Of a stretch of DNA of 64,000 nucleotides, positions 28,491 through 64,000 are shown piece by piece. Position numbers and translations under genes: made by a program. The notes beneath the pieces were generated by a model. It did no database searches. It saw only the letters and a list, made by a program, of their open reading frames with translations, and was not told where the DNA came from. The stretch is from Flavobacteriales bacterium. Lineage in GTDB: Bacteria > Bacteroidota > Bacteroidia > Flavobacteriales_D > Sanyastnellaceae. The stretch lies in NCBI GenBank assembly GCA_016780385.1, contig JADHLY010000001.1, forward strand, positions 37,498 through 101,497, written 5' to 3'. Numbering within the stretch: position 1 is the first letter of the stretch; each line of letters starts with the position of its first letter.

Positions 28491-28943
28491 ATGAGGGCCG
28501 TGGTACAAAGGGTGAGTCGCGCATCCGTCCAAGTGGAAGGGAAAACCATCGGGTCCTGTGGCCCTGGCTTCATGATCCTTCTGGGAGTGCATGCCGAGGA
28601 TACTGAGGAAGATGCCGATTGGCTCGCCCAAAAAACCGCTGCCCTGAGGGTGTTCTCCGACGCCGAGGGCAAGATGAACCAGTCCATCATCGACAAATCA
28701 GGTGAAGCCTTGGTGGTCAGTCAATTCACCCTTCACGCCAAATACAAAAAGGGCGCAAGGCCCAGCTTCATCCACGCCGCCCGGCCCGAAACCGCCATCC
28801 CGCTCTACGAGCGGTTCGTCCGCCAACTGGAAGACCACCTCAAGCGCCCCGTCGCCACGGGCCAATTCGGCGCCATGATGGAGGTGGAGCTCATCAATGA
28901 CGGCCCCGTTACCATCACCATGGACACCCGCAACAAAGAATGA
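28491..28943 (+). CDS. dtd: D-aminoacyl-tRNA deacylase
   Basis: [17 protein letters not shown]...[10 protein letters not shown]...VSQFTLHA...GARPSF...NDGPVTI: full-length Dtd signature. Confidence 0.92.
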
Positions 28944-29281
28944 CGCCCGAAGCCCCCACCCTCGCCGACGTACAGTCCACCGTGGACGAATGGATCACCA
29001 CCATCGGTGTGCGCTATTTCAGCGAGCTCACCAATATGGCCATCCTGACCGAAGAGGTGGGCGAACTCGCGCGCATCATGGCGCGGCGGTATGGCGACCA
29101 AAGCGAAAAGCCCTCAGACGCCGCCCTCGACCTGGGCGACGAGATGGCGGACGTCCTCTGGGTCCTCGCCGCCTTGGCCAACCAAACGGGCGTCGACCTT
29201 TCGGCAGCGTTCCGCCGGAACATCGAAAAGAAAACCCAGCGCGACGCAGACCGCCACCGCAACAATCCCAAGCTCCAATGA
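28940..29281 (+). CDS. MazG-like nucleotide pyrophosphohydrolase
   Basis: EEVGELARI...[17 protein letters not shown] is the all-alpha NTP-PPase EExxE/D motif pair. ATGA overlaps on both sides. Confidence 0.8.
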
Positions 29282-38652: not shown

Positions 38653-39200
38653 TGGGCCGCTCCTCACGTTCCAAGAAGAACGCCCGCAAAGGCAACCGCC
38701 CCCTCTCCCCAGAGGAACGGCTGGCCCGCAACATCACCCGCGAAGGCCGGGATCAGCCCAAGGCCGCACCGCGCAGGAAAGCGGGGCACGCCAAACCGCT
38801 CGACCCAGCAGCACCGTCTTCCGGACAACGCCGCAAAGACCGCAAGCCATCCCGCATCGGACAATGGTTCTCACGCATATTCTCTCCCGTCCGCCACTCC
38901 CTTGCCGGCGACTGGCTCGGGGGACCTGAAGTGACCCGGCACCTCCCCTTCTTCGCCTTTGTCGTGGCCTTGCTCTTGGGATACACCTATCTCGAGTACC
39001 AATACGAATACGACGAACGGGCCATCAAAGAAGGACGCAAATCCTTGCGCGATCTGCGCCACCACGAGCAGAGCCTGCGCGGGCGTTTTGAATCCCAGCT
39101 CCAGCGAAGCCGCTTGGACGAAGACATGGCCGACGTGGGCTTGACTCCCCCCTCGGAGCCCCCCATTTCACTCCCTGCCAACCCCACCACCACCCCATGA
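38649..39200 (+). CDS. ftsL: FtsL-like cell-division protein with extended basic N-terminus
   Basis: Position between rsmH and ftsI. A single TM LPFFAFVVALLLGYTYL is followed by a short coiled segment. The ~90-aa R/K/P-rich N-terminal tail is unusually long. ATGA overlaps on both sides. Confidence 0.65.
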   Translation: MMGRSSRSKKNARKGNRPLSPEERLARNITREGRDQPKAAPRRKAGHAKPLDPAAPSSGQRRKDRKPSRIGQWFSRIFSPVRHSLAGDWLGGPEVTRHLPFFAFVVALLLGYTYLEYQYEYDERAIKEGRKSLRDLRHHEQSLRGRFESQLQRSRLDEDMADVGLTPPSEPPISLPANPTTTP

Positions 39201-41335
39201 AACGCACCCAACACATCGCCACAAGGGCATGGGTGCTGTTTGCACTGTTCGCTGTTTTCGGCGTGGCCATCCTGTTGCGGATCATCTTGATCCAACTCGA
39301 CCCCAGCCACGAGGACATCAGTGCCATGCTGCCTCAGGTGCGGACGATTGAGCCCGAACGCGGCCGCATCCTCTCCGCGGATGGCCACCTGCTCGCAGCT
39401 TCAGTGCCCCGCTTCGACCTCCACTGGGACCCCACGGTCATCGACACCGACGAGGAGAAGGCCTTGTTCCTGACCACCCTGCCCGAACTGGCTGACGCCC
39501 TGGCCAAGGAATTCGGAAAGCGGAGTGTCCAAGGTTGGCGCAACTTCTTGGTGGACGCCCACCGCAACGGCAACAGCCGCTATGTGCCCATCGCCCGAAA
39601 CATCGCTTGGGACCGGCGGCAGGCCGTTGAATCCTTCCCTTGGATTGGCGATCAATCACGCAACCGGTCCGGATTCATGTTTTCGGAAAAGCCCCGCAGG
39701 GACAAGCCCTTCTCTCCACTGGCCAACCGCACAATCGGACTGCACCGTCCCGAAGGCAACAGCGTCGGCATCGAGGCCGCCTTCAACGAAGCCCTCTCCG
39801 GCAAAGAAGGCCAGCGTTTGATGCGCAGGATCCACGGCAATTACTGGATTCCCGCTACTGATGACTTCATCCAGGCCCCGGAACCTGGTCGGGATGTGCG
39901 CACCACCATCGACCTGAGGACCCAAGACGTCGCCACGGACGCCCTGCGCGCCAAACTCGACGAGCACAAGGCGGAATGGGGCTGCGCCGTGGTCATGGAA
40001 GTCGCAACGGGCAATGTGGTCGCCATCTCCAACCTGGTCCGAGACGAAGACACCGGAGTGTGCTCCGAGTCTTACAACCACGCCATCGGCACGGCCATCG
40101 AACCAGGGTCAACCTTCAAGCTCGCCAGCGCCATGGCCCTCTTGGAGTCTGGCAAAATGACCGCCCAGGACACCTTGGAAACCGAAAACGGCATTTTCCA
40201 ACCCGCTCGGGGGTGCACCAAGATGAAGGACACCAGCTACCCGGACGGCGGCTACGGCCCGCTTCGGCTCGAGGAGGTGTTTGAAAGGAGTTCCAATGTG
40301 GGCACCGCAAAAGCCGTCCAGCAGGTCTTTGGTGACGACCCACAGGCGTGGCTCGACGCCCTCCGCGACATCGGCTTGGGTCAGCCATTGGGCATCGCAC
40401 TGGCCGGTGAAGGAAAGCCCAACCAACACGCGACCACGAAGGAGTCCACATGGAGCGCCTGCTCATTGACCTCCATGTCCATCGGATATGAGGTCACCAT
40501 GACCCCCTTGCAGACCGCAGCATTCTACAACACCATCGCTGCGGACGGCCGCCTCATCCGCCCCCGATTTGCGGACGCATTGCTCGATGGTGGTGAAGTG
40601 GCGGAAACCCTGCCCACCCATGTCATCGCACAACGCGTGGCAAGCCGGCCCACCATCGCTGCCCTCAAGTCCATGATGGAACGGGTCTGCGCGCCTGGCG
40701 GGCACGGCACGGCCGAAGACGTCTTCCGGGACAGGCCCTACCGTGTGGCAGGCAAAACCGGCACCGCGCGCGCATCGATACCTGGCGGAGGCTACAAAGG
40801 ACACCGCGCCTCCTTCGCGGGCTTCTTCCCCGCAGAAAAACCCGCCTACACCATTGCGGTTGTCGTCCAGCGCCCCACCGAAAAAGGGTACTACGGTGGC
40901 GTTGTGGCAGCACCCGTATTCCGCGCCATCGCCGACCACCTGCACGGCACGCACCCTGACCTCATCGAGATGGAAGAAGGCCTCCTGACGGAAACCCCGC
41001 GCCTGCCTGTCTCCATGAACGGCTCCACCGCCATCCTTACCAGCCTCTACGATGCGCTGGGCATGCCCTACGTCATCGACACCACGGGGATGGCCGATAT
41101 ACCCGAATTCGCCGCCGCCACCACGGAAGACCACATCGTCACCCTGAACGCGCGGCAGGTCACGGAAGCGCACATCCCAGATGTACGCGGCATGTCACTG
41201 CGAGACGCTGTGCGCTTGCTCGAAACCCGAGGGTTGCAAGTGAGCATCAACGGCCGAGGTACGGTGCGCCGCCAAAGCATCGCACCAGGTACGGCCCCCC
41301 GTCAAGGTCAAACCATACTACTGGAGCTGTCATGA
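39197..41335 (+). CDS. ftsI: Penicillin-binding protein 3-type transpeptidase (FtsI) with C-terminal PASTA domain
   Basis: N-terminal TM; SxxK STFK, SxN SSN, KTG KTGTA; C-terminal PDVRGMSLRDAVRLLETRGLQVSINGRGTV is a PASTA domain. Confidence 0.9.
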   Translation: MKRTQHIATRAWVLFALFAVFGVAILLRIILIQLDPSHEDISAMLPQVRTIEPERGRILSADGHLLAASVPRFDLHWDPTVIDTDEEKALFLTTLPELADALAKEFGKRSVQGWRNFLVDAHRNGNSRYVPIARNIAWDRRQAVESFPWIGDQSRNRSGFMFSEKPRRDKPFSPLANRTIGLHRPEGNSVGIEAAFNEALSGKEGQRLMRRIHGNYWIPATDDFIQAPEPGRDVRTTIDLRTQDVATDALRAKLDEHKAEWGCAVVMEVATGNVVAISNLVRDEDTGVCSESYNHAIGTAIEPGSTFKLASAMALLESGKMTAQDTLETENGIFQPARGCTKMKDTSYPDGGYGPLRLEEVFERSSNVGTAKAVQQVFGDDPQAWLDALRDIGLGQPLGIALAGEGKPNQHATTKESTWSACSLTSMSIGYEVTMTPLQTAAFYNTIAADGRLIRPRFADALLDGGEVAETLPTHVIAQRVASRPTIAALKSMMERVCAPGGHGTAEDVFRDRPYRVAGKTGTARASIPGGGYKGHRASFAGFFPAEKPAYTIAVVVQRPTEKGYYGGVVAAPVFRAIADHLHGTHPDLIEMEEGLLTETPRLPVSMNGSTAILTSLYDALGMPYVIDTTGMADIPEFAAATTEDHIVTLNARQVTEAHIPDVRGMSLRDAVRLLETRGLQVSINGRGTVRRQSIAPGTAPRQGQTILLELS

Positions 41336-51503: not shown

Positions 51504-53366
51504 ATGGAATTCGACCTACCCATTAATTCAGGATCACCCATCAAGGTCATCGGCGTCGGTGGCGGCGGCTCCAATGCCGTCAACTACATGCACCAGCAAG
51601 GCATCAAAGGGGTGGACTTCATTGTGTGCAATACGGACAACCAAGCCCTCGCGGCTTCCAATGTCCCCGTACGCATCCAACTTGGCACCACCCTGACCGC
51701 CGGTCAAGGTGCAGGGAGCATCCCCGAAATCGGGAAAAATGCCGCTATCGAAAACCTCGAAGATGTACTGAGTCAACTCAACGACAATACCACCATGGTC
51801 TTTGTGACTGCCGGAATGGGCGGCGGCACAGGAACGGGTGCGGCACCGGTGATTGCTCAAGCGTGCAAGGACCTCGACATCCTCACTGTCGGAATCGTCA
51901 CCGTGCCCTTCAACTTTGAAGGCCGCCGCCGGGCCACCCAAGCAGGAGACGGCCTCGAAGCCATGCGGGCTGCGGTGGACACCCTGCTGGTCATCCGCAA
52001 CGACAAACTCCGCGAGCTTTTCGGCAACCTGACCCTGAAGCAGGCCTTCTCCAATGCAGACGAGGTACTGTGCACCGCTGCCAAAGGCATCGCAGAAGTC
52101 ATCACGCTGACCGGCGACATCAACGTCGACATGAACGATGTCAAGACGGTGATGAGCGAATCTGGAGCCGCCATCATGGGGGCAGGAAGTGCCAGCGGTG
52201 AAGGCCGCGCCATGACCGCAGTCACGGAGGCATTGGAAAGCCCGTTGCTCAACGACAGCGACATCACAGGTGCCAACTTCGTATTGCTCAACATCACCTA
52301 CGGCACCGACGAGATCCTCATGGACGAGATCTCTGAAATCACGGACTACATCCAAGATCAAGCCGGCGCTACGGCCGAGGTCATTTGGGGATATGGTCAC
52401 GATGAGGCTTTGGGTGAGAAAATTTGTGTGACTGTCATCGCCACTGGCTTTGAAGCGACCGCCAAATTGCCTGAGGGGCCCAGTATCGTCAGGCACAACC
52501 TCCAAGACGAAGCCCGGGAAATCACCCAGCCTATGGAGACCCCGATGGGCAACCCCCAGTTCGGCGACCCCCTCACAACAGCAGAAACTCAAGACGAAAG
52601 TCCCCACCTGAAAGGCGATACGGCTCCTGTTGAAGGAACTGCGGACCCCCGCGATGTTCCCTTGGCCAACACTTGGGCTGCAGCAGACGTGACCGGTGAG
52701 ACCAGCGAAAATGCACCTGACCTCTTTGGTACCGTTGACGGCGCCGAAGAAATGAGCCTCATCCACAAGGAAGTGGAGCAAGCCCCCGCGGAGGAGACCC
52801 ATGAACCCGCCCTCGAAACGACACCCCTCGTTGAGATGACTGAGCGCGTGGAATCGGAACCCACTGCAGACATCACCGCAGAAGTCACAGCGGACACTCC
52901 GACATCCAATGGTGAATACGACATCCTCGACTTGGATGCCAATGAGGAGGACAACCTCATTCCCGAAGAACAGGGTGGCATTTCCTTTACCAACGAACAG
53001 GTAGAGACTGAGGAGGCCGCCCCCACGCCCCTGGCCGAGCAAGCGCCCGCCGCACAAGCACAGCCAATCCCCACCTCACATCCTCAGCCTAAGGCCCCCA
53101 TTGCACCAAAGACCGCGGCACCCGAAACCAGCGACCTCACGCAGCGCATCGCCCAGCGACAACAAAGCATTGAGGCCTATACCAAGCGCCTGCGTACGCC
53201 CAGCGGTTTAAGCGAACTGGAAGATGAACCCGCATACAAGCGCCGCAACATCCAGTTGGAACCCACCCCCTCAAGCGGTGAATCTCAGGCCACCCGGCTG
53301 AGCATCGATGAGGAAACCGGCGGGCTCAAAACAGACAACCCTTTCCTTCACGACAACGTCGACTGA
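51504..53366 (+). CDS. ftsZ: Cell-division GTPase FtsZ with ~250-aa acidic linker
   Basis: IKVIGVGGGGSNAVN, T7/tubulin signature AGMGGGTGTGAAPV, NFEGRRR. A long E/T/P/A-rich linker follows, then the conserved C-terminal peptides EDEPAYKRRN and NPFLHDNVD. Confidence 0.95.
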   Translation: MEFDLPINSGSPIKVIGVGGGGSNAVNYMHQQGIKGVDFIVCNTDNQALAASNVPVRIQLGTTLTAGQGAGSIPEIGKNAAIENLEDVLSQLNDNTTMVFVTAGMGGGTGTGAAPVIAQACKDLDILTVGIVTVPFNFEGRRRATQAGDGLEAMRAAVDTLLVIRNDKLRELFGNLTLKQAFSNADEVLCTAAKGIAEVITLTGDINVDMNDVKTVMSESGAAIMGAGSASGEGRAMTAVTEALESPLLNDSDITGANFVLLNITYGTDEILMDEISEITDYIQDQAGATAEVIWGYGHDEALGEKICVTVIATGFEATAKLPEGPSIVRHNLQDEAREITQPMETPMGNPQFGDPLTTAETQDESPHLKGDTAPVEGTADPRDVPLANTWAAADVTGETSENAPDLFGTVDGAEEMSLIHKEVEQAPAEETHEPALETTPLVEMTERVESEPTADITAEVTADTPTSNGEYDILDLDANEEDNLIPEEQGGISFTNEQVETEEAAPTPLAEQAPAAQAQPIPTSHPQPKAPIAPKTAAPETSDLTQRIAQRQQSIEAYTKRLRTPSGLSELEDEPAYKRRNIQLEPTPSSGESQATRLSIDEETGGLKTDNPFLHDNVD

Positions 53367-54587: not shown

Positions 54588-55346
54588 TCAGTGCAGAATC
54601 AGGCGGATGTCCAAACCCCACCAACTGCCATCCAGCACCCGATCTGCCTCCCGCAAGTCTGCATCGGCCTGGCCCACATTCCAACGGGCCGTAAGGTCAC
54701 CACTGAACAAAGGCTGGATCAAAGGGCGCAGCACGCCCCCTACGTGCAGGTCCGCATCTTCGCCTTCCTTCACCACACCCAATTCCAACCCCATTCCCCA
54801 GCGGCTCCAGTTGTAACGCAAGGACTCGTGCTCCACCGTGAATACAGTACCCGATTGCTCAGCACTTTCAGCCGCAAAAGCATTGGTCGGTAGAATTTCC
54901 ATCACAATGCCTCCTCCGGCGCCCAAGCGCCAGCCAGGCACCAGCGTGACTTCGGTGCGGTAAAGAATCGGAATGGAATACGACGCCACAATCCAGTCCA
55001 TGTCCACCGATGCCAGCGGCGCAGAGGCCACTTCAGGCATCCAATCCGCCTCCAAGGTCCAAATCCGACGCGTCTGCTCGAAACCAAAAGCCAATTGTCC
55101 GGCTTTGCCCAATTGACGGCGAATCGACACCCCATAGCTTCGCGTGCCTTGCTGCCCCCAACGGGCCATCAGCGGTGCATCGGCCCACTGCAGCGGTTGG
55201 CCATTCCAACCCACGCCCTCTCCCGCTGCTGGCCGGCCGACAGACAAGGACGTCAACAGCCGCACGTCCAAGGACCAAAGCTCACTTTGGGCCCACACAC
55301 CACTTGTGCAAAGCGAAACACACAATATGGCCACCCACCTGATCAT
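54588..55346 (-). CDS. Hypothetical exported/outer-membrane protein (252 aa)
   Basis: The ATG at 55346 gives MIRWVAILCVSLCTSGVWAQ (signal). Trp/Gly-rich beta-strand-like alternation. ATGA overlap with the upstream gene. Confidence 0.6.
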   Translation of the reverse strand: MIRWVAILCVSLCTSGVWAQSELWSLDVRLLTSLSVGRPAAGEGVGWNGQPLQWADAPLMARWGQQGTRSYGVSIRRQLGKAGQLAFGFEQTRRIWTLEADWMPEVASAPLASVDMDWIVASYSIPILYRTEVTLVPGWRLGAGGGIVMEILPTNAFAAESAEQSGTVFTVEHESLRYNWSRWGMGLELGVVKEGEDADLHVGGVLRPLIQPLFSGDLTARWNVGQADADLREADRVLDGSWWGLDIRLILH

Positions 55347-55678
55347 GAGCGCATCCATCCTATTGCGGCAAGCACCACCATTCCTGCTGTCACGAGCAAC
55401 ATCAGCCACCGCAAACCACCATGGGCGATAAACGGCTGCCGGTGCCGGGCATGCAACAGGTGATTCACCCGCAGTGCTTCCTTGAACACAGAACGATGCA
55501 CGCCGAATTTCAACACAATGCCTTCTCCACTTGAAGCCGCCTCAATGGGCGCCTTTTCAAACGCAATGTCCCCGCGCACCAAATCCCGCTCGAATTCCTC
55601 TGCCATTTCCGCATTTCGAAACTCAAAAACGTGATAGCGGTTGTCCGCTGGATGCGTATACCAATTGGTCAGCCGCAT
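55343..55678 (-). CDS. Hypothetical protein (111 aa) with C-terminal TM anchor
   Basis: MRLTNWYTHPADNRYHVFEFRNAEMAEEFERDL..., then WLMLLVTAGMVVLAAIGW. Starts 1 nt after the stop of the upstream nitroreductase gene (55680). Confidence 0.6.
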   Translation of the reverse strand: MRLTNWYTHPADNRYHVFEFRNAEMAEEFERDLVRGDIAFEKAPIEAASSGEGIVLKFGVHRSVFKEALRVNHLLHARHRQPFIAHGGLRWLMLLVTAGMVVLAAIGWMRS

Positions 55679-58463: not shown

Positions 58464-58493
58464 GATGCGAAGATGGGGCATACTCTAAAAGAG

Positions 58494-58519
58494 AAAGGCC
58501 CGACTTGCGTCGGGCCTTT
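58494..58519 (-). terminator. Rho-independent terminator of the giant gene
   Basis: AAAGGCCCGAC-TTGC-GTCGGGCCTTT: perfect 11-bp stem. On the minus strand it is followed by TCTCTTTT, 40 nt after the stop at 58560. Confidence 0.85.
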
Positions 58520-58559: not shown

Positions 58560-61500
58560 TTAGCAGTCGGTACCGAAAGCACCCAAGAAGATCAACAGGT
58601 CAGACGTGGTCGTCTGTCCGTCGCCGTTCAAGTCCGTTGGACAAGGGTTCGCTGTATCGAAAATACATGAACCATCATCGTTGGTTGGCAACATGTCTTC
58701 TGGGATAACCGTACCATCATCATACACTCCGTAGTTGGAAGCGTCTGGGTAGGTACAACCCATGATCACTGCTGTGAAGTCACAGAGGTCATCGTTGACA
58801 ATGTCAACACTGTCTGGATCCACGTAGTTCGGAGCGAATGGCAAGCCACATCCCTCAGTACAAGGGGTTCCGAGACCTACTTGGTAGGTGCCAGGACCAC
58901 CAGCGGTGTTGTTGAAGGCGTTGCCTGAGATGGTCCAGCTCACCTCTGAAGGGAAGGAACCACCGGTCACGACCAATGTGACACATCCTGAAGCATCGAT
59001 ACAAATCTCATCTGAGTCAGCATCTCCGTTGCCTTCTGTAGAGAGCAAGCCACCCTCAGCGAGGAGGTTGCCATCGGCATCGTAGAAGCTGTAGGTAGCA
59101 CCGTTCCATCCGTCGCCGAAGCTATCGAACATGTTGAAGGTGATGAACGAACCGAAGCAGCAGGAACCGTCATCCAATGAAGCGAATGGGTTGTAGTTCA
59201 CAGCATCAGGGTTGGTACAACCGAGGCAGCTGTAGTCACAGAGCGTGTTGTCTGCGAAGTCAACTGGACCGTTGTAGTTACAAGCTGTTGAGTCAGCACA
59301 ACCCGTGCTTGGTGCTGGAGCACAAGTGATCGCCAAGCTAATGAAGTAGCCCGTCGTGCTTGTGACACAGCTCACTGAACCGTCAGAAGTGAAGCTCACA
59401 GTCAATGAGTCCGTACCGATTACGAGGCCGTCGTCAGGATCAACATCGCTGTTGTACAGGTTGGCACCCGTAGCCGCGTCGTCGATGACGAGCTCGTCCC
59501 AGCCCTGCTCGATGAGCGTACCGGCAAGGTCGACAACGATCGTACCACCGTTCGGGTTGACCAACGTGAAGCTCCAGCTCTCGTTCAAACCGTAGCAGTA
59601 ATCCCAGGTCTCGGTATCGCAGTCCAAGCAGCTCGTGTAGTCGCAAGGATCGTTGACATCGTCAACGTTTGCTTCTGAGTTGTAGTTACAAGCCAATTCA
59701 TCCTGACAACCGTACACAACAGGCTCGCAAGAAACGCTCAATTCGAACGGTCCACCAATTGAACCTGAACCTGCACTCACCAAGATGGCGTAGGTGTTGG
59801 CATTGTCGTCGCTGATGAACTGGAAGGTCTCACCGTTTTCACAGCTCTCGTCGCTGATCAAGGTGTTGTCACCCTCGTTCCAGCAGAGGAGGCTGCCACA
59901 AGTGCCCGTTCCACCGAAGATGGTGAAGGACTGCTCAACAGTTGCTCCAGCAGGGAAGTTGAATGGGCTGGCATCCAACGTGAAATCAAAGCTGGTAGAA
60001 GAACCAGTAACATCACCAGCGGTCACCAAAGCGGTGCCATCAACGGTTGTGAGGTTCACATCGTCTGAACCGGTAGTGCCGATTCCATCACCGAAGCTGT
60101 CCGCAACGACCAACGTGTAGCTACCAGCTGGCAAGCAGAGGGTCTCTGTGTTCGTCGTGTTGGAGAAGGAAGGAGCACCGCTGGCCACAACCGATCCGTT
60201 CGCGTTCGTGATTGTCCAAGAGGTCTCCGAAACAAATGAGTCCGTATTGATGCTCAAGTCAAAGCAAACCTGAGGATCAGTGGTACATCCGCCTGAGCAG
60301 AGGAGGTCCTGTGAGGAACCATCGGAAGAGATCACCTGAGCGGCGATGCCGTCGAGCTCTGAACCCTCATTGGTGAAGTACACAGTGTAATCACCTCCAG
60401 ACAAGCTGTAGTAGAAGTCATTGAACAGTGTGGGGAACAATTCACCCGCTGGAATGGATGCAACCGTGTCACCGTTGTACACAATCACTGCGCTGATGTT
60501 CTGGTAGTTGTCAGCATTCAAGCTGTTCACCTCCAACGTAGCGTCGGGAGCATCCACCTCCTGGAACACCTCCAGTGTGCTGTTCACCGTAGATCCGCAA
60601 GTGCTGATGGTAACCAGCTGCTCCACACCACCGTTATCCAAGGTGTACCAAACTCCGCTACCGGAACCTCCACAAGCGTTCGTTCCACCGACGGCGGTTG
60701 CACCACCGGTATTACCCATTTCAGTTCCACCACATGCAATGGCAATGGCATTGCTGCAGCTGTCATTGGGCTGGGTCACGCCAACATACAGGCAACCTGC
60801 GTTAATCGTAGCCTGATCGTTGTAGTTAGAAGCAGTGGGGTCAGTACAACCCTGAATCTCCGCAGAGAGGCTTACACTGTAGGTACCGCAATCTTCAGTC
60901 TGCGTTGTCCAAATGAACAGGTAGTATGTGTTGTCATAGTTCGGAGATGAAATGCTCACGGTAGCGGGACCTTCTTGCTCCGCAGCGAAGTACTGGTTCA
61001 TCTCTTCCTGTACAGCACCTGAAACAACACCTGAAACCATGTCAGCCAAGTCGTCGCATGCACCATTGTAGGTAGCGTAACCAACAGCTCCGTCACCTGT
61101 AGCATCCACAGTGATGTTGTACAGGTTGTAAGGCGCTTCAGTAGAAACCTCATACCATACACCATATGCAGTAGCGAAAGTGCTCAAGCTGGGCATACCA
61201 AAGTCCTCATCTGGACCAGAGCAGCAGAGGCTACCATCATAGTTACCACCGTCAACCAATGGCAAAGCCAAGGTGCAGACATCATCATTGTTCGGGAATC
61301 CATCGGGACATACTGCACAGTTAGCTTCGATCACAATGCCTGTTTGGCTGGAGAAGCTGCTGTAGTGACCAACACGCACGAGGTAGTTGTCACCCTGCTC
61401 AGCGTTGATGCTCACGATGGAGTTGAATGAACCCGTTGTTCCTGAACCACAACCTGCAATACCAGAGTCATCATTCGTAGCAATGGCGGTCAATGAACCG

Positions 61501-63866
61501 TCCGTGCCCACAGCAAACACAATCACGTCAGTGTCGGTCACACCATTGTCGGCATCTGCAGAAGCACAGGTGTTAAAGGTCACTTGGTAATCCTGGTCAG
61601 CGTTGAACTCGTACCAAATGGCACCGCTTTCAGAAATCGCGTTACCCAATACAGTCGTACCGCTGTACTCGTCTCCATTGGAGTTGGCCAAAGAACCCGT
61701 CAGAATGAGTTCACAAGCGATGGCCTGTGCATCCTCTGGGTTGTCGTTGGCTGGCGGGAACTCACATGTTCCGTCATCAACAGAAGCAGAGATATTGTAG
61801 TTGTTTGCAGCTGGATCCGTACAACCTGGGAAGGCACAGTCAGTGACGCCAGTGCCACCAAATGCCACTGGATATCCATCCGTTGGACCATATGTGAGAT
61901 CAGCATAAACATTGCCCAAGTTATCGGCAAGGCCCCATCCTTCAGTAGTAAAGATGGCCCCGGTGCTAAACGTATAGCAACCGATATTCAAGCAGTTCAC
62001 CGCTTCAATCGTCGTTGATCCTGCTGCCATTGTGCCTGTCAGAACGGTGTCACCGGTCTCCTCACTCACCAAGTAGTAATCGTTTCCTGGGCTCCATCCT
62101 GAAGCAAAGTTGTCTTGCAGGGTCAAATAGAAACCGAGTTGACCATTGTCACACACCACACAAGAACCATCGTCGATGGTCGCGTCGGCGTTGTAGTTGA
62201 TGGCCGCTGGAAGCGTACATCCGCTCACACAGGTCTCAGTAGATGAGCCGAAGCCGATGTCATACACACCGAGGGTGCCTTCGTGAATCACGTTTCCACT
62301 GAAGTCCAAGATGTACCAGAGGGGCTGACCTGAAGGTGAACCACCTCCACCTGAGAAGTTCAAACAAGCATCGTTGGGAACACAGAACTCCCAGTATCCA
62401 TCAACAACAGTAGCCTCAAAGTCTGGGACGTAGAGGTCATTGTTGTAACCCGCTGACAAGAGCGTGTCACCTGTGACAGGGTCGTAGATGTAAGCAGCGT
62501 TGTTACCCCAGAACAAGAAAATGTCGTGGTTCAAGTAGAGGATGTAGCTCGTGCTGTCTGCATTGCCCAAGCAGCTTGGAGAGAAACAGGAGCCATCATC
62601 AGCTGTTGCAGTCTCGTCGTAGTTAAATGCGTTGGCATCCGTACATCCGCAGACCACATCACCAGCAGCAACACCAAATACTCCAAATCCGTCGTTGGCA
62701 GTGAAGTCATACAGAATCTCTCCTGTGTTGAAGTTCACCATCTGCCACTCCTTCTCACCGGGGAAAGAACCACCGGACACTTCGAAAACGTAGCACTCGG
62801 TAGAAGAGATGCAGAGGAAGTCATAACCTGCCGCACCTGGATCAGTAACAAACGTAGCGTCGTCCAAGGAACCCGTGCTCAAGATCTCTCCAGCCTGGTT
62901 TGACAAGGTGTAAGACGCACCGTCCCATCCATCTCCGAAGGTGTCGTACATCAGGAGCTGCACGAGAACATCATCTGGGTTGTCGCAGCTTGGGAAGACG
63001 CAGCTTCCATCGTCTACGGTGGCGTCACCGTCGAAGTTCAACGCCGTGACATCCGTACAGCCACACACCTCAGCCGTAGGACCGAAGTAGAAAGAAGCCG
63101 TTCCACCGTCCTCATCGCCAGCGATGATTGCACCTGTGTAGGCGCTTACAATGGTCCATCCGATTTCACCCAAGAAGCTTCCGCCTCCACTTACAACTTC
63201 GTAACAAGCGCCAGACGGAATACAAATGGTATCCTGACCAGCATTGGCACCTCCGGCGGTACCTCCAGTTCCAGTGACAGAATCGTCCAAGGTTCCAGAC
63301 GCAATCAACACGCCGTCGGCATAAATCTCGTAGGTGTTGCCGTTCCAGCCGTCACCCCAAGTGTCGGTCATGTTTACGAAGACCATCTCATCGTCAGAGG
63401 TCGCGCAGATGTCGAACAAGCATGAACCGTCGTTCAGGGTAGCTGTATCGTCGTAGTTCAACGCCGTCTCATCAGTACAACCTGGGACATCTGATGTCAG
63501 AGTGAACGCAAATTCAGATCCTGACCCCGCGACTACTCCAGAACATTGACCGGTACAGTTGAAGGCGCCTCCATCCACAGCCATCCCCGTTCCTCCGTCA
63601 CCGAAAGAGTCATCGATGGACACGGTGTAGTCTCCCGCTCCGTAAGTAGCGATGCTGTAGACGTTGACGTCATTCGGTCCATTGGGGAACAAAAGCGCTC
63701 CGTCCACGTTTAGAATCGTGTCCCCATTGAAGGTAACGATACAAGAAGTCACTTCATCGGGATAAAAGTCCGCTGTGAAAGTGATGGTCTGCGCCTGTAG
63801 CGACGCAAAGAGGGCCAAGGCAAACGTGCCAAGGGACCCTCGGAGAATGGTAGTTCTCAGGTTCAT
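58560..63866 (-). CDS. Giant (1,768 aa) cysteine-rich modular secreted protein, function unknown
   Basis: The ATG at 63866 gives MNLRTTILRGSLGTFALALFASLQAQ (signal peptide); the track start (TTG 63896) lies inside the candidate promoter. It contains 11 short C..A.NY..DDGSC modules, GDGW modules and PPC-like modules, and ends ...DLNGDGQTTTSDLLIFLGAFGTDC. No T9SS CTD. Confidence 0.9.
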   Translation of the reverse strand: MNLRTTILRGSLGTFALALFASLQAQTITFTADFYPDEVTSCIVTFNGDTILNVDGALLFPNGPNDVNVYSIATYGAGDYTVSIDDSFGDGGTGMAVDGGAFNCTGQCSGVVAGSGSEFAFTLTSDVPGCTDETALNYDDTATLNDGSCLFDICATSDDEMVFVNMTDTWGDGWNGNTYEIYADGVLIASGTLDDSVTGTGGTAGGANAGQDTICIPSGACYEVVSGGGSFLGEIGWTIVSAYTGAIIAGDEDGGTASFYFGPTAEVCGCTDVTALNFDGDATVDDGSCVFPSCDNPDDVLVQLLMYDTFGDGWDGASYTLSNQAGEILSTGSLDDATFVTDPGAAGYDFLCISSTECYVFEVSGGSFPGEKEWQMVNFNTGEILYDFTANDGFGVFGVAAGDVVCGCTDANAFNYDETATADDGSCFSPSCLGNADSTSYILYLNHDIFLFWGNNAAYIYDPVTGDTLLSAGYNNDLYVPDFEATVVDGYWEFCVPNDACLNFSGGGGSPSGQPLWYILDFSGNVIHEGTLGVYDIGFGSSTETCVSGCTLPAAINYNADATIDDGSCVVCDNGQLGFYLTLQDNFASGWSPGNDYYLVSEETGDTVLTGTMAAGSTTIEAVNCLNIGCYTFSTGAIFTTEGWGLADNLGNVYADLTYGPTDGYPVAFGGTGVTDCAFPGCTDPAANNYNISASVDDGTCEFPPANDNPEDAQAIACELILTGSLANSNGDEYSGTTVLGNAISESGAIWYEFNADQDYQVTFNTCASADADNGVTDTDVIVFAVGTDGSLTAIATNDDSGIAGCGSGTTGSFNSIVSINAEQGDNYLVRVGHYSSFSSQTGIVIEANCAVCPDGFPNNDDVCTLALPLVDGGNYDGSLCCSGPDEDFGMPSLSTFATAYGVWYEVSTEAPYNLYNITVDATGDGAVGYATYNGACDDLADMVSGVVSGAVQEEMNQYFAAEQEGPATVSISSPNYDNTYYLFIWTTQTEDCGTYSVSLSAEIQGCTDPTASNYNDQATINAGCLYVGVTQPNDSCSNAIAIACGGTEMGNTGGATAVGGTNACGGSGSGVWYTLDNGGVEQLVTISTCGSTVNSTLEVFQEVDAPDATLEVNSLNADNYQNISAVIVYNGDTVASIPAGELFPTLFNDFYYSLSGGDYTVYFTNEGSELDGIAAQVISSDGSSQDLLCSGGCTTDPQVCFDLSINTDSFVSETSWTITNANGSVVASGAPSFSNTTNTETLCLPAGSYTLVVADSFGDGIGTTGSDDVNLTTVDGTALVTAGDVTGSSTSFDFTLDASPFNFPAGATVEQSFTIFGGTGTCGSLLCWNEGDNTLISDESCENGETFQFISDDNANTYAILVSAGSGSIGGPFELSVSCEPVVYGCQDELACNYNSEANVDDVNDPCDYTSCLDCDTETWDYCYGLNESWSFTLVNPNGGTIVVDLAGTLIEQGWDELVIDDAATGANLYNSDVDPDDGLVIGTDSLTVSFTSDGSVSCVTSTTGYFISLAITCAPAPSTGCADSTACNYNGPVDFADNTLCDYSCLGCTNPDAVNYNPFASLDDGSCCFGSFITFNMFDSFGDGWNGATYSFYDADGNLLAEGGLLSTEGNGDADSDEICIDASGCVTLVVTGGSFPSEVSWTISGNAFNNTAGGPGTYQVGLGTPCTEGCGLPFAPNYVDPDSVDIVNDDLCDFTAVIMGCTYPDASNYGVYDDGTVIPEDMLPTNDDGSCIFDTANPCPTDLNGDGQTTTSDLLIFLGAFGTDC

Positions 63867-63892
63867 GATTAAGGTTTTTTCCAATTGCCGGA

Positions 63893-63921
63893 GCAATATA
63901 GAGGAAACCGCGCTGAATCAA
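63893..63921 (-). promoter_or_regulatory. Candidate Bacteroidota-type promoter (TTG-N18-TAtaTTGc) for the giant gene
   Basis: The minus strand reads cTTGattcagcgcggtttcctcTATATTGCtccgg, resembling the -33 TTG / -7 TAnnTTTG consensus. An A-rich leader (ggaaaaaaccttaatc) precedes the ATG. Confidence 0.3.
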
Positions 63922-64000
63922 GAAGAGAATGCGGGATGAAATCATGCCGGTTCCCGAAGATGCGGCGGGTCACAACTTGCAGGTCGTTGATTATCAAAGA

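What the first reader, a model, noticed from the sequence alone, without database searches (positions are those of the whole stretch)
58560..63866. Monocistronic 1,768-aa cysteine-stapled mosaic secreted protein with no recognisable catalytic or classical adhesin domain
This is the largest gene in the window, bounded by its own candidate promoter with an A-rich leader and by a perfect 11-bp-stem terminator. After a Sec signal peptide it consists of at least 20 modules of about four types (see the separate findings below), each delimited by paired cysteines. The composition is dominated by G/T/D/S/N/A/V/Y, with very few K/R/H (highly acidic). By eye I find no hydrolase, lectin, FN3, cadherin, PKD, VWA or Ig signatures. 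The picture is of a disulfide- and probably Ca2+-stabilised extracellular fibre or coat protein of unknown function. It is built from modules that, to my knowledge, are not described functionally.
Basis: partly seen in the sequence, partly recalled or inferred. Interest (0 to 1): 0.7.

Follow-up and report, generated by a model that had tools for sequence, protein, structure and literature searches.

The report
Highly expressed lysine-free modular surface protein
This is a real, strongly transcribed gene of an uncultured marine Flavobacteriales bacterium. It encodes a 1,768-residue exported protein made of about 25 small cysteine-stapled modules, almost without lysine or arginine, that ends in half a "GC-type dockerin" instead of the usual Bacteroidota secretion tail; it is most likely a non-enzymatic surface coat or adhesin that standard trypsin proteomics cannot see.

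Summary
Window 58560-63866 (-) is one 1,768-aa ORF with a Sec/SPI signal peptide, 77 cysteines, 247 D+E and only 1 K and 3 R. An 11-bp-stem terminator follows it.

Metatranscriptome contigs cover the gene at about 41-48x, against 0-6x for 24 kb of neighbouring genes. They stop at the terminator and no more than 13 nt upstream of the ATG, so the gene is monocistronic and highly expressed.

There are about 25 modules of five unrelated types:
- GDGW beta-sandwiches, including permuted variants: no Pfam, NCBIfam or PDB match.
- Eleven 20-residue Cys-closed linkers (GCTDxxAxNYxxxAxxDDGSC): undescribed.
- Three or four distant PPC/collagen-binding-like domains.
- One weakly CUB-like domain.
- A C-terminal single-repeat (half) GC-type dockerin (NF041540, below cut-off).

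There is no T9SS C-terminal domain and no catalytic domain. Wider family members end either in a T9SS tail or in this dockerin. In all 12 orthologous loci a ~1,484-1,524-aa paralog with the same tail sits directly upstream.

Best reading: a polyanionic, disulfide- and Ca2+-stabilised, trypsin-proof surface coat or adhesin anchored by the dockerin-like tail. Function and export route are inferred, not shown. It is a new variant of a known kind.

The parts
63894..63900 (-). TATATTG, a candidate Bacteroidota -7-type promoter element upstream of the RNA 5' limit
   Evidence: Read from the sequence. It lies 15-21 nt upstream of the farthest RNA contig end at 63879. No sigma-70 consensus is present here. 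Inference only.
63867..63886 (-). Short A-rich 5' leader (aattggaaaaaaccttaatc)
   Evidence: RNA contigs from three metatranscriptomes end between 63857 and 63879, and none covers 63881-64000. The DNA run X1 does cover that stretch.
58560..63866 (-). CDS, 1,768 aa plus stop
   Evidence: There are 29 full-length orthologs at 59-82 % identity. RNA contig depth is 41-48x.
63792..63866 (-). Sec/SPI signal peptide, residues 1-25, cleavage A25|Q26
   Evidence: Read from the sequence. A25 and Q26 are invariant. Fits the Q-rule (PMC5837995).
63483..63791 (-). A0: N-terminal beta-sandwich, residues 26-128, with DSFGDGG; a GDGW-family variant
   Evidence: Its HMM converges on the GDGW family. AF2 pLDDT is about 90. 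It is similar to residues 1091-1195 and 1208-1297.
63408..63482 (-). L1: Cys-closed linker GCTDETALNYDDTATLNDGSC (residues 129-153)
63066..63407 (-). G1: GDGW module (residues 154-267)
   Evidence: HMM iE 8.9e-26. Eight predicted strands.
62988..63065 (-). L2 linker (residues 268-293)
62652..62987 (-). G2: GDGW module (residues 294-405); holds the only lysine, the invariant K372
62574..62651 (-). L3 linker (residues 406-431)
62223..62573 (-). G3: degenerate GDGW module (residues 432-548; motif reads FLFWGNN)
   Evidence: HMM iE 6.4e-13
62154..62222 (-). L4 linker (residues 549-571)
61827..62153 (-). G4: degenerate GDGW module (residues 572-680; motif reads FASGWSPG)
   Evidence: HMM iE 3.7e-9
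61755..61826 (-). L5 linker (residues 681-704)
61311..61754 (-). P1: PPC/collagen-binding-domain-like module (residues 705-852)
   Evidence: The family profile hits ColH/ColG CBDs (5sv5 E 7.5e-4, 5iku) and PPC 2luw. Pfam PPC matches 5 of 16 members. Foldseek hits 5iku at E 4.7e-6.
60852..61310 (-). P2: second, more divergent P-type module (residues 853-1005)
   Evidence: P1 HMM iE 2e-16
60780..60851 (-). L6 linker (residues 1006-1029)
60564..60779 (-). P3n: N-terminal part of a third P-type module (residues 1030-1101)
   Evidence: Aligns to the start of a contiguous P domain in paralogs P0109 and P0111. HMM iE 7.5e-21.
60267..60563 (-). A1: beta module (residues 1102-1200); either an insert or a divergent continuation of P3
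   Evidence: The parse is ambiguous.
59970..60266 (-). A2: GDG module (residues 1201-1299), apparently a circular permutant of the GDGW module; the most variable part of the protein (54 % identity)
   Evidence: Aligns to permuted G5 at z 6.6 against native order at z 2.7. Conservation. Carries the weak internal Por_Secre_tail hit.
59712..59969 (-). P3c: C-terminal part of a P-type module (residues 1300-1385)
   Evidence: Aligns to the C-terminal two thirds of the contiguous P domain of P0111. HMM iE 0.0046.
59631..59711 (-). L7 linker (residues 1386-1412)
59304..59630 (-). CUB-like beta-sandwich (residues 1413-1521), found only in this ortholog group
   Evidence: Absent from the upstream paralog. 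Sequence support is weak: CUB_M02D8 in 2 of 16 members, TIG in 5 of 16. CUB proteins top the Foldseek list for the whole model, but the hits are not resolved to this module.
59157..59303 (-). L8 and L9: tandem linkers (residues 1522-1570)
58854..59156 (-). G5: GDGW module (residues 1571-1671)
   Evidence: HMM iE 6.8e-27
58659..58853 (-). L10 and L11: elongated linkers (residues 1672-1736)
58563..58658 (-). C-terminal single-repeat (half) GC-type dockerin, CPTDLNGDGQTTTSDLLIFLGAFGTDC (residues 1737-1768); the most conserved part of the protein (88 %)
   Evidence: NF041540 E 5.6e-4, profile positions 30-67 of 67, 20.3 bits against a cut-off of 29. Dockerin_1 E 0.1. Predicted helix at residues 1754-1763. 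Conservation.
58487..58519 (-). Intrinsic terminator: 11-bp stem, GCAA loop, CTCTTTT tail
   Evidence: RNA contigs end at 58513 and 58528, and depth is 0 on the downstream SDR gene.

Best explanation
The gene encodes an abundant, non-enzymatic, Sec-exported structural or adhesive protein of an uncultured marine Flavobacteriales bacterium.

Shown:
- It is transcribed as its own short-leader, terminator-bounded mRNA at far higher levels than its neighbours.
- The product is a string of about 14 small beta-sandwich domains: GDGW type and permuted variants, PPC/collagen-binding-like, and one CUB-like.
- The domains are separated by 11 disulfide-type 20-residue Cys loops.
- The protein ends in a single Ca2+-loop-plus-helix unit, which is half of a GC-type dockerin.
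- The mature chain has 247 acidic residues and only two basic ones (K372 and R831).

Inferred:
- After SPI cleavage at A25|Q26, with probable pyroglutamate formation, the chain is oxidised into about 38 disulfides.
- It is displayed outside the cell as an extended polyanionic fibre or coat, resistant to Lys/Arg-specific proteases.
- The conserved C-terminal half-dockerin holds it at the cell by a Ca2+-dependent dockerin-type contact. This contact possibly forms by pairing with the identical-type half-dockerin of the paralog encoded directly upstream.
- The more variable N-terminal GDGW modules and the PPC- and CUB-like modules face outward and bind particles, glycans or proteins.
For: Real and conserved: 29 full-length orthologs at 59-82 % identity, with almost all Cys invariant.

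Expression and transcript bounds: RNA contig depth is 41-48x over the gene, against 0-2.7x on the SDR, M28 and nitroreductase genes and <=6x over window 34-54 kb, which includes ftsZ. RNA ends at 58513/58528 and at 63866-63879. A DNA run reads through.

All-beta modular fold: AF2 pLDDT 81 for residues 25-705.

No catalytic domain here or in the relatives scanned. Co-occurring domains are PPC, GBD_T9SS_assoc, Ig_7, MAM, Calx-beta and the T9SS CTD, which is the repertoire of surface proteins.

P modules resemble Ca2+-dependent collagen-binding domains.

C-terminal half GC-dockerin. 116-118 of the top 120 homologs end this way, and other GDGW-module proteins end in a T9SS CTD instead. The tail therefore occupies the position of a sorting or anchoring domain.

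Conservation gradient: the dockerin is 88 % identical, against 54-60 % for A0, G1, G2 and A2. This fits an anchored C-terminus and an exposed distal end.

The tandem paralog, with the same grammar and the same tail, is present in all 12 orthologous loci.

K+R is 0.2 % here and 0.26 % at the median in the family, against 6-11 % in the neighbouring proteins.
Against: - No localisation data exist.
- No route across the outer membrane is known for GC-dockerin-tailed proteins in Bacteroidota, and no T9SS CTD is present.
- No cohesin-like partner was identified.
- The dockerin match is below NCBIfam's cut-off and covers only one repeat.
- Fold assignments come from whole multi-domain models with TM about 0.1 and are not resolved per domain.
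- The second model is of modest quality (pLDDT 64.5).
- Contig depth is a crude proxy for expression. The RNA contigs come from about 97 %-identical strains. Contig ends can also reflect de Bruijn graph breaks rather than true RNA ends.
- Ca2+ binding and disulfide pairing are inferred from motifs only.
Confidence: 0.45

Rival explanations
1. It is a conventional T9SS cargo adhesin, like the SprB/RemA-type giant surface proteins. It would be exported by the type IX system using a cryptic or non-canonical signal and attached through the T9SS sortase pathway.
For: The organism is a member of Flavobacteriales. Relatives sharing GDGW and PPC-like modules carry bona fide Por_Secre_tail domains (P0033, P0119, P0165, P0171, P0244; many loci). 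A weak internal Por_Secre_tail-like stretch lies at residues 1209-1256 (E 0.029).
Against: There is no C-terminal CTD in Pfam or NCBIfam at E<=1. The last 32 residues are a dockerin-type loop-helix, not a beta-sandwich. The two kinds of tail are mutually exclusive across the family. The weak hit is internal and below the cut-off.
Confidence: 0.15
2. It is a released, soluble exoprotein rather than a cell-bound coat. It would act as a polyanionic, protease-proof scavenger or binder of particles, glycans or cations in the surrounding water. The half-dockerin would mediate only oligomerisation, as a homo- or heterodimer with the paralog.
For: The protein has a signal peptide, no membrane anchor, no lipobox and no CTD. 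It is extremely acidic and Cys-stapled, which suits a free extracellular life. EF-hand-type units normally pair, and each paralog has only one.
Against: A free protein is costly for a small planktonic cell, because it is lost by diffusion. The tail is the most conserved module and takes the place that the T9SS anchoring domain has in relatives.
Confidence: 0.2
3. It stays in the periplasm, or on the inner face of the outer membrane, as a structural or Ca2+-buffering polyanion and is never surface-exposed.
For: Only a Sec signal is demonstrable, and no recognised outer-membrane translocation signal is present.
Against: It is 183 kDa and built from module types (PPC-like, CUB-like, dockerin-like, and partners of the T9SS CTD in relatives) that are typical of extracellular proteins. 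GDGW modules also occur in secreted-type giant proteins of marine protists and in phage-associated proteins.
Confidence: 0.07
4. Its main role is defensive: a dense acidic shield or decoy layer that blocks phage adsorption or grazer digestion, rather than adhesion to substrates.
For: It is near-free of K and R, hence immune to trypsin-like digestion. RNA levels are very high. Foldseek hits from the N-terminal half reach proteins of marine uncultured viruses and of crAss-like virus NIOZ-UU157, including a muzzle-protein C-terminal domain (E 1e-21 to 1e-10). GDGW modules occur on IMG/VR contigs.
Against: The gene is conserved in synteny next to core genes (the ftsZ region) at 59-82 % identity. 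It does not sit in a hypervariable island, as is typical of phage-driven surface loci. The viral hits may be host-derived or mis-binned.
Confidence: 0.1

Closest known systems
GC-type dockerin domain-anchored proteins (NCBIfam NF041540)
   Same: The module is C-terminal. It has a Ca2+-loop (DxNxDGxxxxxD) plus a hydrophobic helix, ends in FGxxC, and is bracketed by a Cys pair. Two-repeat relatives in the same module family match the full profile, one above the cut-off (35.5 bits).
   Different: Only one of the two repeats is present (profile positions 30-67). The score is 20.3 bits, below the cut-off of 29. The host is Bacteroidota. To my knowledge the family itself has no experimental characterisation, and a literature search found nothing.
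T9SS-secreted giant modular surface adhesins of Flavobacteriia (SprB/RemA type; own knowledge) and GBD_T9SS_assoc/PPC-bearing T9SS cargo (PF23759, PF04151, PF18962)
   Same: These are large, acidic, non-catalytic strings of beta-sandwich domains from the same order. Relatives combine the very same GDGW modules with PF23759/PPC and a T9SS CTD.
   Different: This protein has no T9SS CTD. Its repeat types are different (GDGW, Cys-loop linker). It is dense in cysteines (4.4 %) and almost free of K and R.
Collagen-binding domains of clostridial collagenases ColG/ColH, and the PPC (pre-peptidase C-terminal) domain
   Same: The P-module profile hits 5sv5 (E 7.5e-4), 5iku and 2luw. Foldseek hits the tandem s3a-s3b domains of 5iku (E 4.7e-6, prob 1.0). 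The N-terminal 'ND..A..l' and C-terminal 'YYxxV...G.fxLsv' signatures are shared.
   Different: The window's own P1 gives no Pfam hit. The modules are larger (about 150 aa), carry extra Cys pairs, and are not attached to a peptidase. Ligand and Ca2+ dependence are untested.
CUB-domain extracellular proteins (cubilin, enteropeptidase, neuropilin, PCPE-1)
   Same: They top the Foldseek PDB matches of the C-terminal model (E about 1e-7, prob 1.0). Residues 1413-1521 show the pattern ...WDELVIDD...SLTVSFTSDGSVS....
   Different: Sequence support is weak (2 of 16 members, E 0.005). The Foldseek alignments span many domains at TM about 0.1, so the hit cannot be assigned to this module.
Cellulosomal type I dockerin (PF00404)
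   Same: It shares the F-hand Ca2+ loop and helix. Two-repeat relatives reach the Pfam cut-off (23.6-24.6 bits).
   Different: This protein reaches only E 0.1 with one repeat. No cohesin partner is known, the organism has no cellulosome, and the terminal Cys staple is absent from classical dockerins.

Membership tests
GC-type dockerin domain-anchored protein (NF041540) | Match to the NCBIfam model at or above its curated cut-off (29 bits) | tested here: not met
   20.3 bits, E 5.6e-4. A two-repeat relative reaches 35.5 bits.
GC-type dockerin domain-anchored protein (NF041540) | Two tandem loop-helix repeats covering the whole 67-position profile | tested here: not met
   Only profile positions 30-67 are matched, and there is a single repeat.
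GC-type dockerin domain-anchored protein (NF041540) | Location at the extreme C-terminus, ending in G-x(0-3)-C | tested here: met
   ...FLGAFGTDC* forms the last residues and is invariant in the orthologs.
GC-type dockerin domain-anchored protein (NF041540) | Ca2+-dependent anchoring to a partner | not testable with these tools
   The DLNGDGQTTTSD loop fits the EF/F-hand consensus, but binding was not measured.
T9SS cargo (type A CTD: PF18962 / TIGR04183) | C-terminal 70-100-aa beta-sandwich sorting domain | tested here: not met
   Pfam gives 0 hits. NCBIfam gives only an internal stretch at residues 1209-1256, E 0.029, 14.4 bits against a cut-off of 23.
PPC / collagen-binding domain (PF04151; ColG s3) | Significant sequence or structure match of the P modules | tested here: inconclusive
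   The window's P1 alone gives no Pfam hit. The family profile hits 5sv5 at E 7.5e-4. PPC matches 5 of 16 members at best E 4.5e-4. Foldseek hits 5iku at E 4.7e-6 but TMt is only 0.35.
CUB domain | Sequence or fold match of residues 1413-1521 | tested here: inconclusive
   CUB_M02D8_5_3rd matches 2 of 16 members (E 0.0048). There is no PDB sequence hit. The Foldseek CUB hits are not resolved to this module.
Sec/SPI substrate obeying the Bacteroidetes Q-rule | n-h-c signal peptide with Gln at +1 and no lipobox Cys | tested here: met
   ...LFASLQA|QTITF, with A25 and Q26 invariant and the first Cys at residue 42. The rule is described in PMC5837995. No predictor was run.
Classical adhesin or enzyme domains (FN3, cadherin, PKD, VWA, Ig, lectin, hydrolase, RTX) | Any Pfam or NCBIfam match | tested here: not met
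   There are 0 Pfam families at E<=1 for the whole protein and no PDB sequence match at E<=10 with the ortholog profile.
GDGW-module proteins (uncurated family defined here) | About 80-110-aa module with D-[ST]-[FWY]-G-D-G-W-N-G ... C-x(3-6)-C-Y ... GG-x-[FWY]-x-x-E-[IV]-x-W | tested here: met
   There are five copies plus permuted or degenerate variants. 1,780 representatives at 50 % identity match at E<=1e-3. No Pfam or PDB relative was found.

The most novel reading that the evidence does not exclude
The single-repeat 'half dockerins' of this protein and of the paralog encoded directly upstream pair with each other, as EF-hands do, into one complete, Cys-stapled, Ca2+-dependent dockerin. 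This would assemble a heteromeric surface layer that is almost free of K and R and is exported and anchored independently of the T9SS C-terminal domain. If so, it would be a previously unrecognised surface-display system and a major cell-surface component of abundant uncultured marine Flavobacteriales. It would have escaped metaproteomics because trypsin cannot cut it.
Probability: 0.15. Interest if true: 0.75.

Novelty: new variant of a known kind. Interest (0 to 1): 0.55.

Why it matters
Uncultured Flavobacteriales are major consumers of organic matter in the ocean, and their cell surface decides what they stick to and which phages and grazers can attack them. This gene is among the most strongly transcribed in its 64-kb neighbourhood and is conserved across at least 12 species-level genomes. 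Its main building blocks are absent from Pfam, NCBIfam and the PDB.

Three points are of general use:
1. The GDGW module and the Cys-loop linker are widespread in marine Bacteroidota and also occur in protists, Cloacimonadota and phage-associated contigs. They deserve curated families and a structure.
2. A (half) GC-type dockerin replaces the T9SS tail in hundreds of related proteins. This points to an unstudied anchoring or export route in Bacteroidota.
3. Proteins with two basic residues in 1,743 are invisible to tryptic metaproteomics, so a potentially dominant surface protein class may be missing systematically from marine protein inventories.

Tried and rejected
- Whole-protein Pfam and NCBIfam scans gave nothing except a weak internal Por_Secre_tail stretch.
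- The ortholog-profile search of PDB sequences gave no hit at E<=10.
- Foldseek on the two multi-domain AF2 models gave long, low-TM (about 0.1) alignments to generic multi-beta-sandwich proteins (otoferlin, complement, cytokine receptors). These are uninformative for the N-terminal half.
- The GDGW profile against PDB and Pfam gave only scattered chance-level Ig-like hits.
- Profile-profile comparisons G vs P, CUB-like vs P and CUB-like vs G showed no relationship (probabilities <1 %). The module types are therefore treated as distinct.
- The CUB-like profile searched against 5.8 billion proteins returned only three fragments, so nothing was learned beyond lineage restriction.
- Self-BLAST of the whole protein returned only the identity hit. 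A windowed BLAST was used instead.
- Exact look-up of the window's protein to recover the upstream flank found nothing on record.
- The sigma-70 and terminator consensus scan found neither the promoter nor the obvious terminator.
- Literature searches for GDGW, DDGSC and 'GC-type dockerin' gave nothing relevant.
- The JGI name 'subtilisin-like proprotein convertase family protein', seen on a paralog cluster, was rejected. It rests on a P-domain-like stretch only, and no peptidase domain is present.
- The TTG at 63896 was rejected as the start codon, because RNA does not reach it.
Full report
OBSERVATION

The window holds a single long ORF on the minus strand, 58560..63896 from a TTG, with the ATG at 63866 giving 1,768 aa. 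It is the only ORF in the 64 kb that carries the module types described below.

The N-terminus is MNLRTTILRGSLGTFALALFASLQA|QTITF. It has two arginines, a 14-residue hydrophobic core and no lipobox cysteine (the first Cys is at residue 42). A25 and Q26 are invariant in 23 orthologs. I read this as a Sec/SPI signal peptide that exposes Gln, as described for Bacteroidetes in the 'Q-rule' papers (PMC5837995, PMC10653852). No signal-peptide predictor was available, so this reading is by eye.

There are 77 Cys, 247 D+E, one Lys, three Arg (two of them in the signal peptide) and three His, with pI about 4. Six other proteins of the window (SDR, M28, nitroreductase, FtsZ and two further ORFs at 28897-32232 and 39197-41335) have 6-11 % K+R. 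The orthologs keep 1-6 K and 2-8 R over about 1,760 residues, and K372 and R831 are invariant. A tryptic digest of the mature chain would give three peptides of 347, 459 and 937 residues.

Thirty-six nucleotides after the stop codon lies AAAGGCCCGAC-GCAA-GTCGGGCCTTT (58519-58494), followed by CTCTTTT. The fold gives -27.2 kcal/mol with z = -4.9. The consensus scanner missed it because extending the stem uses up the T tract.

TRANSCRIPTION

The sequence is present in many marine, estuarine and aquatic metagenomes and metatranscriptomes.

In two metatranscriptome assemblies (X25, X26), contigs from strains about 97 % identical to the window cover the gene continuously at a word depth of 41-48. 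The SDR, M28 peptidase and nitroreductase genes immediately downstream have depth 0-2.7. The 20 kb from 34 to 54 kb, which includes ftsZ, has only short contigs at depth <=6.

The RNA contigs end at 58513 and 58528, at or just before the terminator hairpin; one end carries an Illumina adapter. At the other side, contigs from three RNA runs and several co-occurring strains end between 63857 and 63879. None covers 63881-64000, even at 80 % likeness, whereas a DNA run reads through.

These data support a monocistronic mRNA with a leader of roughly 13-20 nt (aattggaaaaaaccttaatcATG). They argue against the upstream TTG as the start codon. They also place TATATTG (63900-63894) where a Bacteroidota -7 box (TAnnTTTG; own knowledge) would lie.

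Two caveats apply. Contig depth is a rough proxy for expression, and contig ends can be assembly-graph breaks rather than true RNA ends.

ANATOMY

Windowed self-comparison, iterated HMMs on 80 related loci and two AlphaFold models give the layout listed under 'parts'.

(i) Linkers. Eleven linkers have the form G-C-[TQA]-D-x-x-A-x-N-[YF]-[ND]-x-x-A-x-x-D-D-G-S-C, that is, a loop of about 20 residues closed by two invariant cysteines. They are among the best conserved parts of the protein (L8, L2/L4 and L9: 86, 83 and 82 %; the eleven range 53-86 %).

(ii) GDGW modules. There are five: G1, G2 and G5 are canonical, G3 and G4 are degenerate. Each is predicted as an eight-stranded beta-sandwich (pLDDT 80-90). 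Each has the motif D-[ST]-[FWY]-G-D-G-W-N-G, an internal C-x5-C, a second motif GG-x-F-x-x-E-[IV]-x-W, and a Cys at each end. A0 and A2 carry 'DSFGDG' late in the module instead of early. A2 aligns better to a circularly permuted G5 (z 6.6, 0 of 300 shuffles) than to the native order (z 2.7). This suggests a permuted variant, but the evidence is only suggestive.

(iii) P modules. P1 and P2 are complete. A third is interrupted or rearranged. Its N-terminal part (1030-1101) and its C-terminal part (1300-1385) each align to a contiguous domain of about 150 residues in paralogs P0109 and P0111. About 200 residues (A1 + A2) lie between them.

(iv) A module at 1413-1521 with a CUB-like sequence pattern. 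It is restricted to this ortholog group and is absent from the upstream paralog.

(v) A C-terminal unit, C-P-T-D-L-N-G-D-G-Q-T-T-T-S-D-L-L-I-F-L-G-A-F-G-T-D-C.

Profile-profile comparisons show no relationship among the G, P and CUB-like types.

The cysteine spacing suggests the pairing: one pair per linker, an N-to-C staple plus an internal pair in each G module, and one pair around the tail. This is an inference.

WHAT THE MODULES ARE

The whole protein has no Pfam match at E<=1 and no PDB sequence relative.

GDGW module. A 67-sequence profile matches nothing significant in the PDB and no Pfam family consistently. A search of 1.84 billion representatives, using a three-copy profile from this protein, finds 1,780 proteins at E<=1e-3. 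They include proteins of the pelagophyte Chrysophaeum taylorii, an MMETSP protist transcript and Cloacimonadota; all of these that carry a name are called 'hypothetical protein'. In relatives with Pfam hits, the module co-occurs with GBD_T9SS_assoc, PPC, Ig_7, MAM, Calx-beta and the T9SS CTD, and never with a catalytic domain in the nine proteins scanned.

P modules. These are distant PPC/collagen-binding-domain relatives. The profile hits ColH and ColG CBDs (5sv5 E 7.5e-4; 5iku) and a PPC domain (2luw). Pfam PPC matches 5 of 16 family members and GBD_T9SS_assoc matches 4 of 16. Foldseek matches the ColG tandem CBD (E 4.7e-6, prob 1.0).

CUB-like module. CUB proteins head the Foldseek list for the C-terminal model, but the alignments span many domains at TM about 0.1. 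Sequence support for the 1413-1521 module is weak. I therefore leave 'CUB-like' as inconclusive.

C-terminal tail. It matches the second half of NCBIfam NF041540, 'GC-type dockerin domain-anchored protein' (E 5.6e-4, 20.3 bits, cut-off 29), and weakly Dockerin_1. Relatives with two such repeats match the full profile, one of them above the cut-off, and also match Dockerin_1 and EF-hand models. The loop DLNGDGQTTTSD has the D-x-N-x-D-G...D spacing of F-hand and EF-hand Ca2+ sites, and AF2 places a helix on TSDLLIFLGA.

FAMILY AND CONTEXT

There are 997 homologs at E<=1e-3 among the candidates scored. Twenty-nine are full-length orthologs (59-82 % identity), all from uncultured marine Flavobacteriales/Bacteroidota MAGs. 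All are unannotated and none has a Pfam domain.

Twelve species-level reference genomes carry the ortholog. In every one of those loci a 1,484-1,524-aa paralog lies directly upstream on the same strand (truncated by the contig end in one). It has the same grammar: an SPI signal ending in A|Q, an A0-like domain, six G modules, three P modules, 13 linkers, and the tail CPTDLNQDGATTTADLLEFLISFGDPC. In the window this neighbour would begin just beyond coordinate 64000. RNA does not bridge the gap. Downstream synteny (SDR, M28, nitroreductase) appears conserved by ORF sizes and order in the one locus examined.

Across the wider set of GDGW proteins the C-terminus is one of two kinds. It is either a T9SS sorting domain or one or two GC-dockerin repeats. 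Of the 120 closest homologs, 116 end in the single repeat by regex, two more by eye, and two end in a T9SS CTD. Their median K+R is 0.26 %.

Within the orthologs the tail is the most conserved module (88 %). A0, G1, G2 and A2 are the least conserved (54-60 %).

HOW IT MOST LIKELY WORKS

Shown: the gene is real and conserved, strongly and separately transcribed, and exported at least across the inner membrane. It is non-catalytic by every search, built of small beta-sandwiches and Cys loops, polyanionic, and almost free of trypsin sites. It ends in a Ca2+-loop/helix unit that substitutes for the T9SS tail found in relatives.

Inferred: the protein is oxidised into a rigid beads-on-a-string fibre and displayed outside the cell. 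The conserved tail holds it there through a Ca2+-dependent dockerin-type contact. Because EF/F-hands normally work in pairs and each of the two tandem paralogs has just one, pairing of the two tails is an attractive but untested possibility. The variable distal modules and the PPC- and CUB-like modules would provide binding surfaces. The absence of Lys and Arg would protect against Lys/Arg-specific proteases and keep the fibre from collapsing onto anionic surfaces.

I put about 0.45 on this surface coat or adhesin reading. The rivals are a released exoprotein, a cryptic T9SS cargo, a periplasmic polyanion, and a primarily anti-phage or anti-grazer shield. They are listed above with their tests. 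The weakest link is export across the outer membrane, for which no signal is recognisable.

COMPARISON AND NOVELTY

In kind, it resembles the large non-enzymatic surface proteins of Bacteroidota and the uncharacterised 'GC-type dockerin domain-anchored' proteins. It fails the formal membership tests for both, having no CTD and only half a dockerin below the cut-off.

Its two most numerous building blocks are undescribed in the libraries searched, and I found no literature on them. I therefore rate it a new variant of a known kind, not categorically new.

A cultured handle exists. Sanyastnella coralliicola (Flavobacteriales, Sanyastnellaceae) encodes a family member, WP_306640393.1, clustered at 90 % identity with P0105, whose tail is of the same single-repeat kind (near-miss to the motif pattern).

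Noticed in passing
beyond window end (>64000); L003:5262-9713 and the equivalent in L001-L012: A ~1,484-1,524-aa paralog lies directly upstream of the ortholog in all 12 orthologous loci. It has the same module grammar and the same half GC-dockerin tail. The window cuts it off, so the target gene is half of a conserved tandem pair.
   Followed up: partly
L004, L063/L072, L039/L049, L041: Contigs carrying this Flavobacteriales-type gene family sit in reference MAGs labelled Nitrosopumilus sp., Methanobacteriota archaeon, Comamonadaceae and Bdellovibrionales. L004 is a 76 %-identical full-length ortholog. These are probably mis-binned contigs.
   Followed up: no
P0145, P0269, P0183: GDGW modules also occur in eukaryotic marine protists (Chrysophaeum taylorii KAJ8600298.1 with 11 stretches; a 4,665-aa MMETSP transcript) and in Cloacimonadota. 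Every one of these proteins that carries a name is called 'hypothetical protein'. The module is a widespread, uncurated marine extracellular domain.
   Followed up: partly
L081-L100 (IMG/VR) and BFVD hits A0A218MM41, A0A218ML01, A0A7S9XDT1, A0A7S9SUA2: Viral-contig proteins carry single GDGW modules, many with T9SS-CTD-like tails. The N-terminal model matches proteins of marine uncultured viruses and of crAss-like virus NIOZ-UU157, including a muzzle-protein C-terminal domain (E 1e-21 to 1e-10). It is unclear whether these are genuine phage genes or host contamination.
   Followed up: partly
window 59970-60266 (residues 1201-1299) versus 58854-59156 (G5): Module A2 aligns better to a circularly permuted GDGW module (z 6.6) than to the native order (z 2.7). 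A2 is also the most variable module and carries the weak internal Por_Secre_tail-like stretch.
   Followed up: partly
window 59712-60779 (residues 1030-1385): The third PPC-like domain is split or rearranged by about 200 residues relative to the contiguous domain in paralogs P0109 and P0111. This is either a nested domain insertion or a partial duplication.
   Followed up: partly
window 51504-53366 (+): This ORF is FtsZ (Tubulin + FtsZ_C). The target gene therefore lies close to a core cell-division region, not in a variable island. The ORF at 54588-55409 (-) has no Pfam match.
   Followed up: no
window 59097-59123, 62159-62183 and 63445-63482: Short stretches inside the gene attract extra RNA and DNA contigs from other loci or strains, and one chimeric RNA contig joins 59120 to 61597. 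These coincide with the coding sequence of conserved motifs and look like assembly cross-talk between repeated modules, not splicing.
   Followed up: no
P0109 cluster: JGI names a paralog 'subtilisin-like proprotein convertase family protein' on the strength of a 50-residue P-domain-like stretch. No peptidase domain is present, so this is a likely over-annotation that could propagate.
   Followed up: partly
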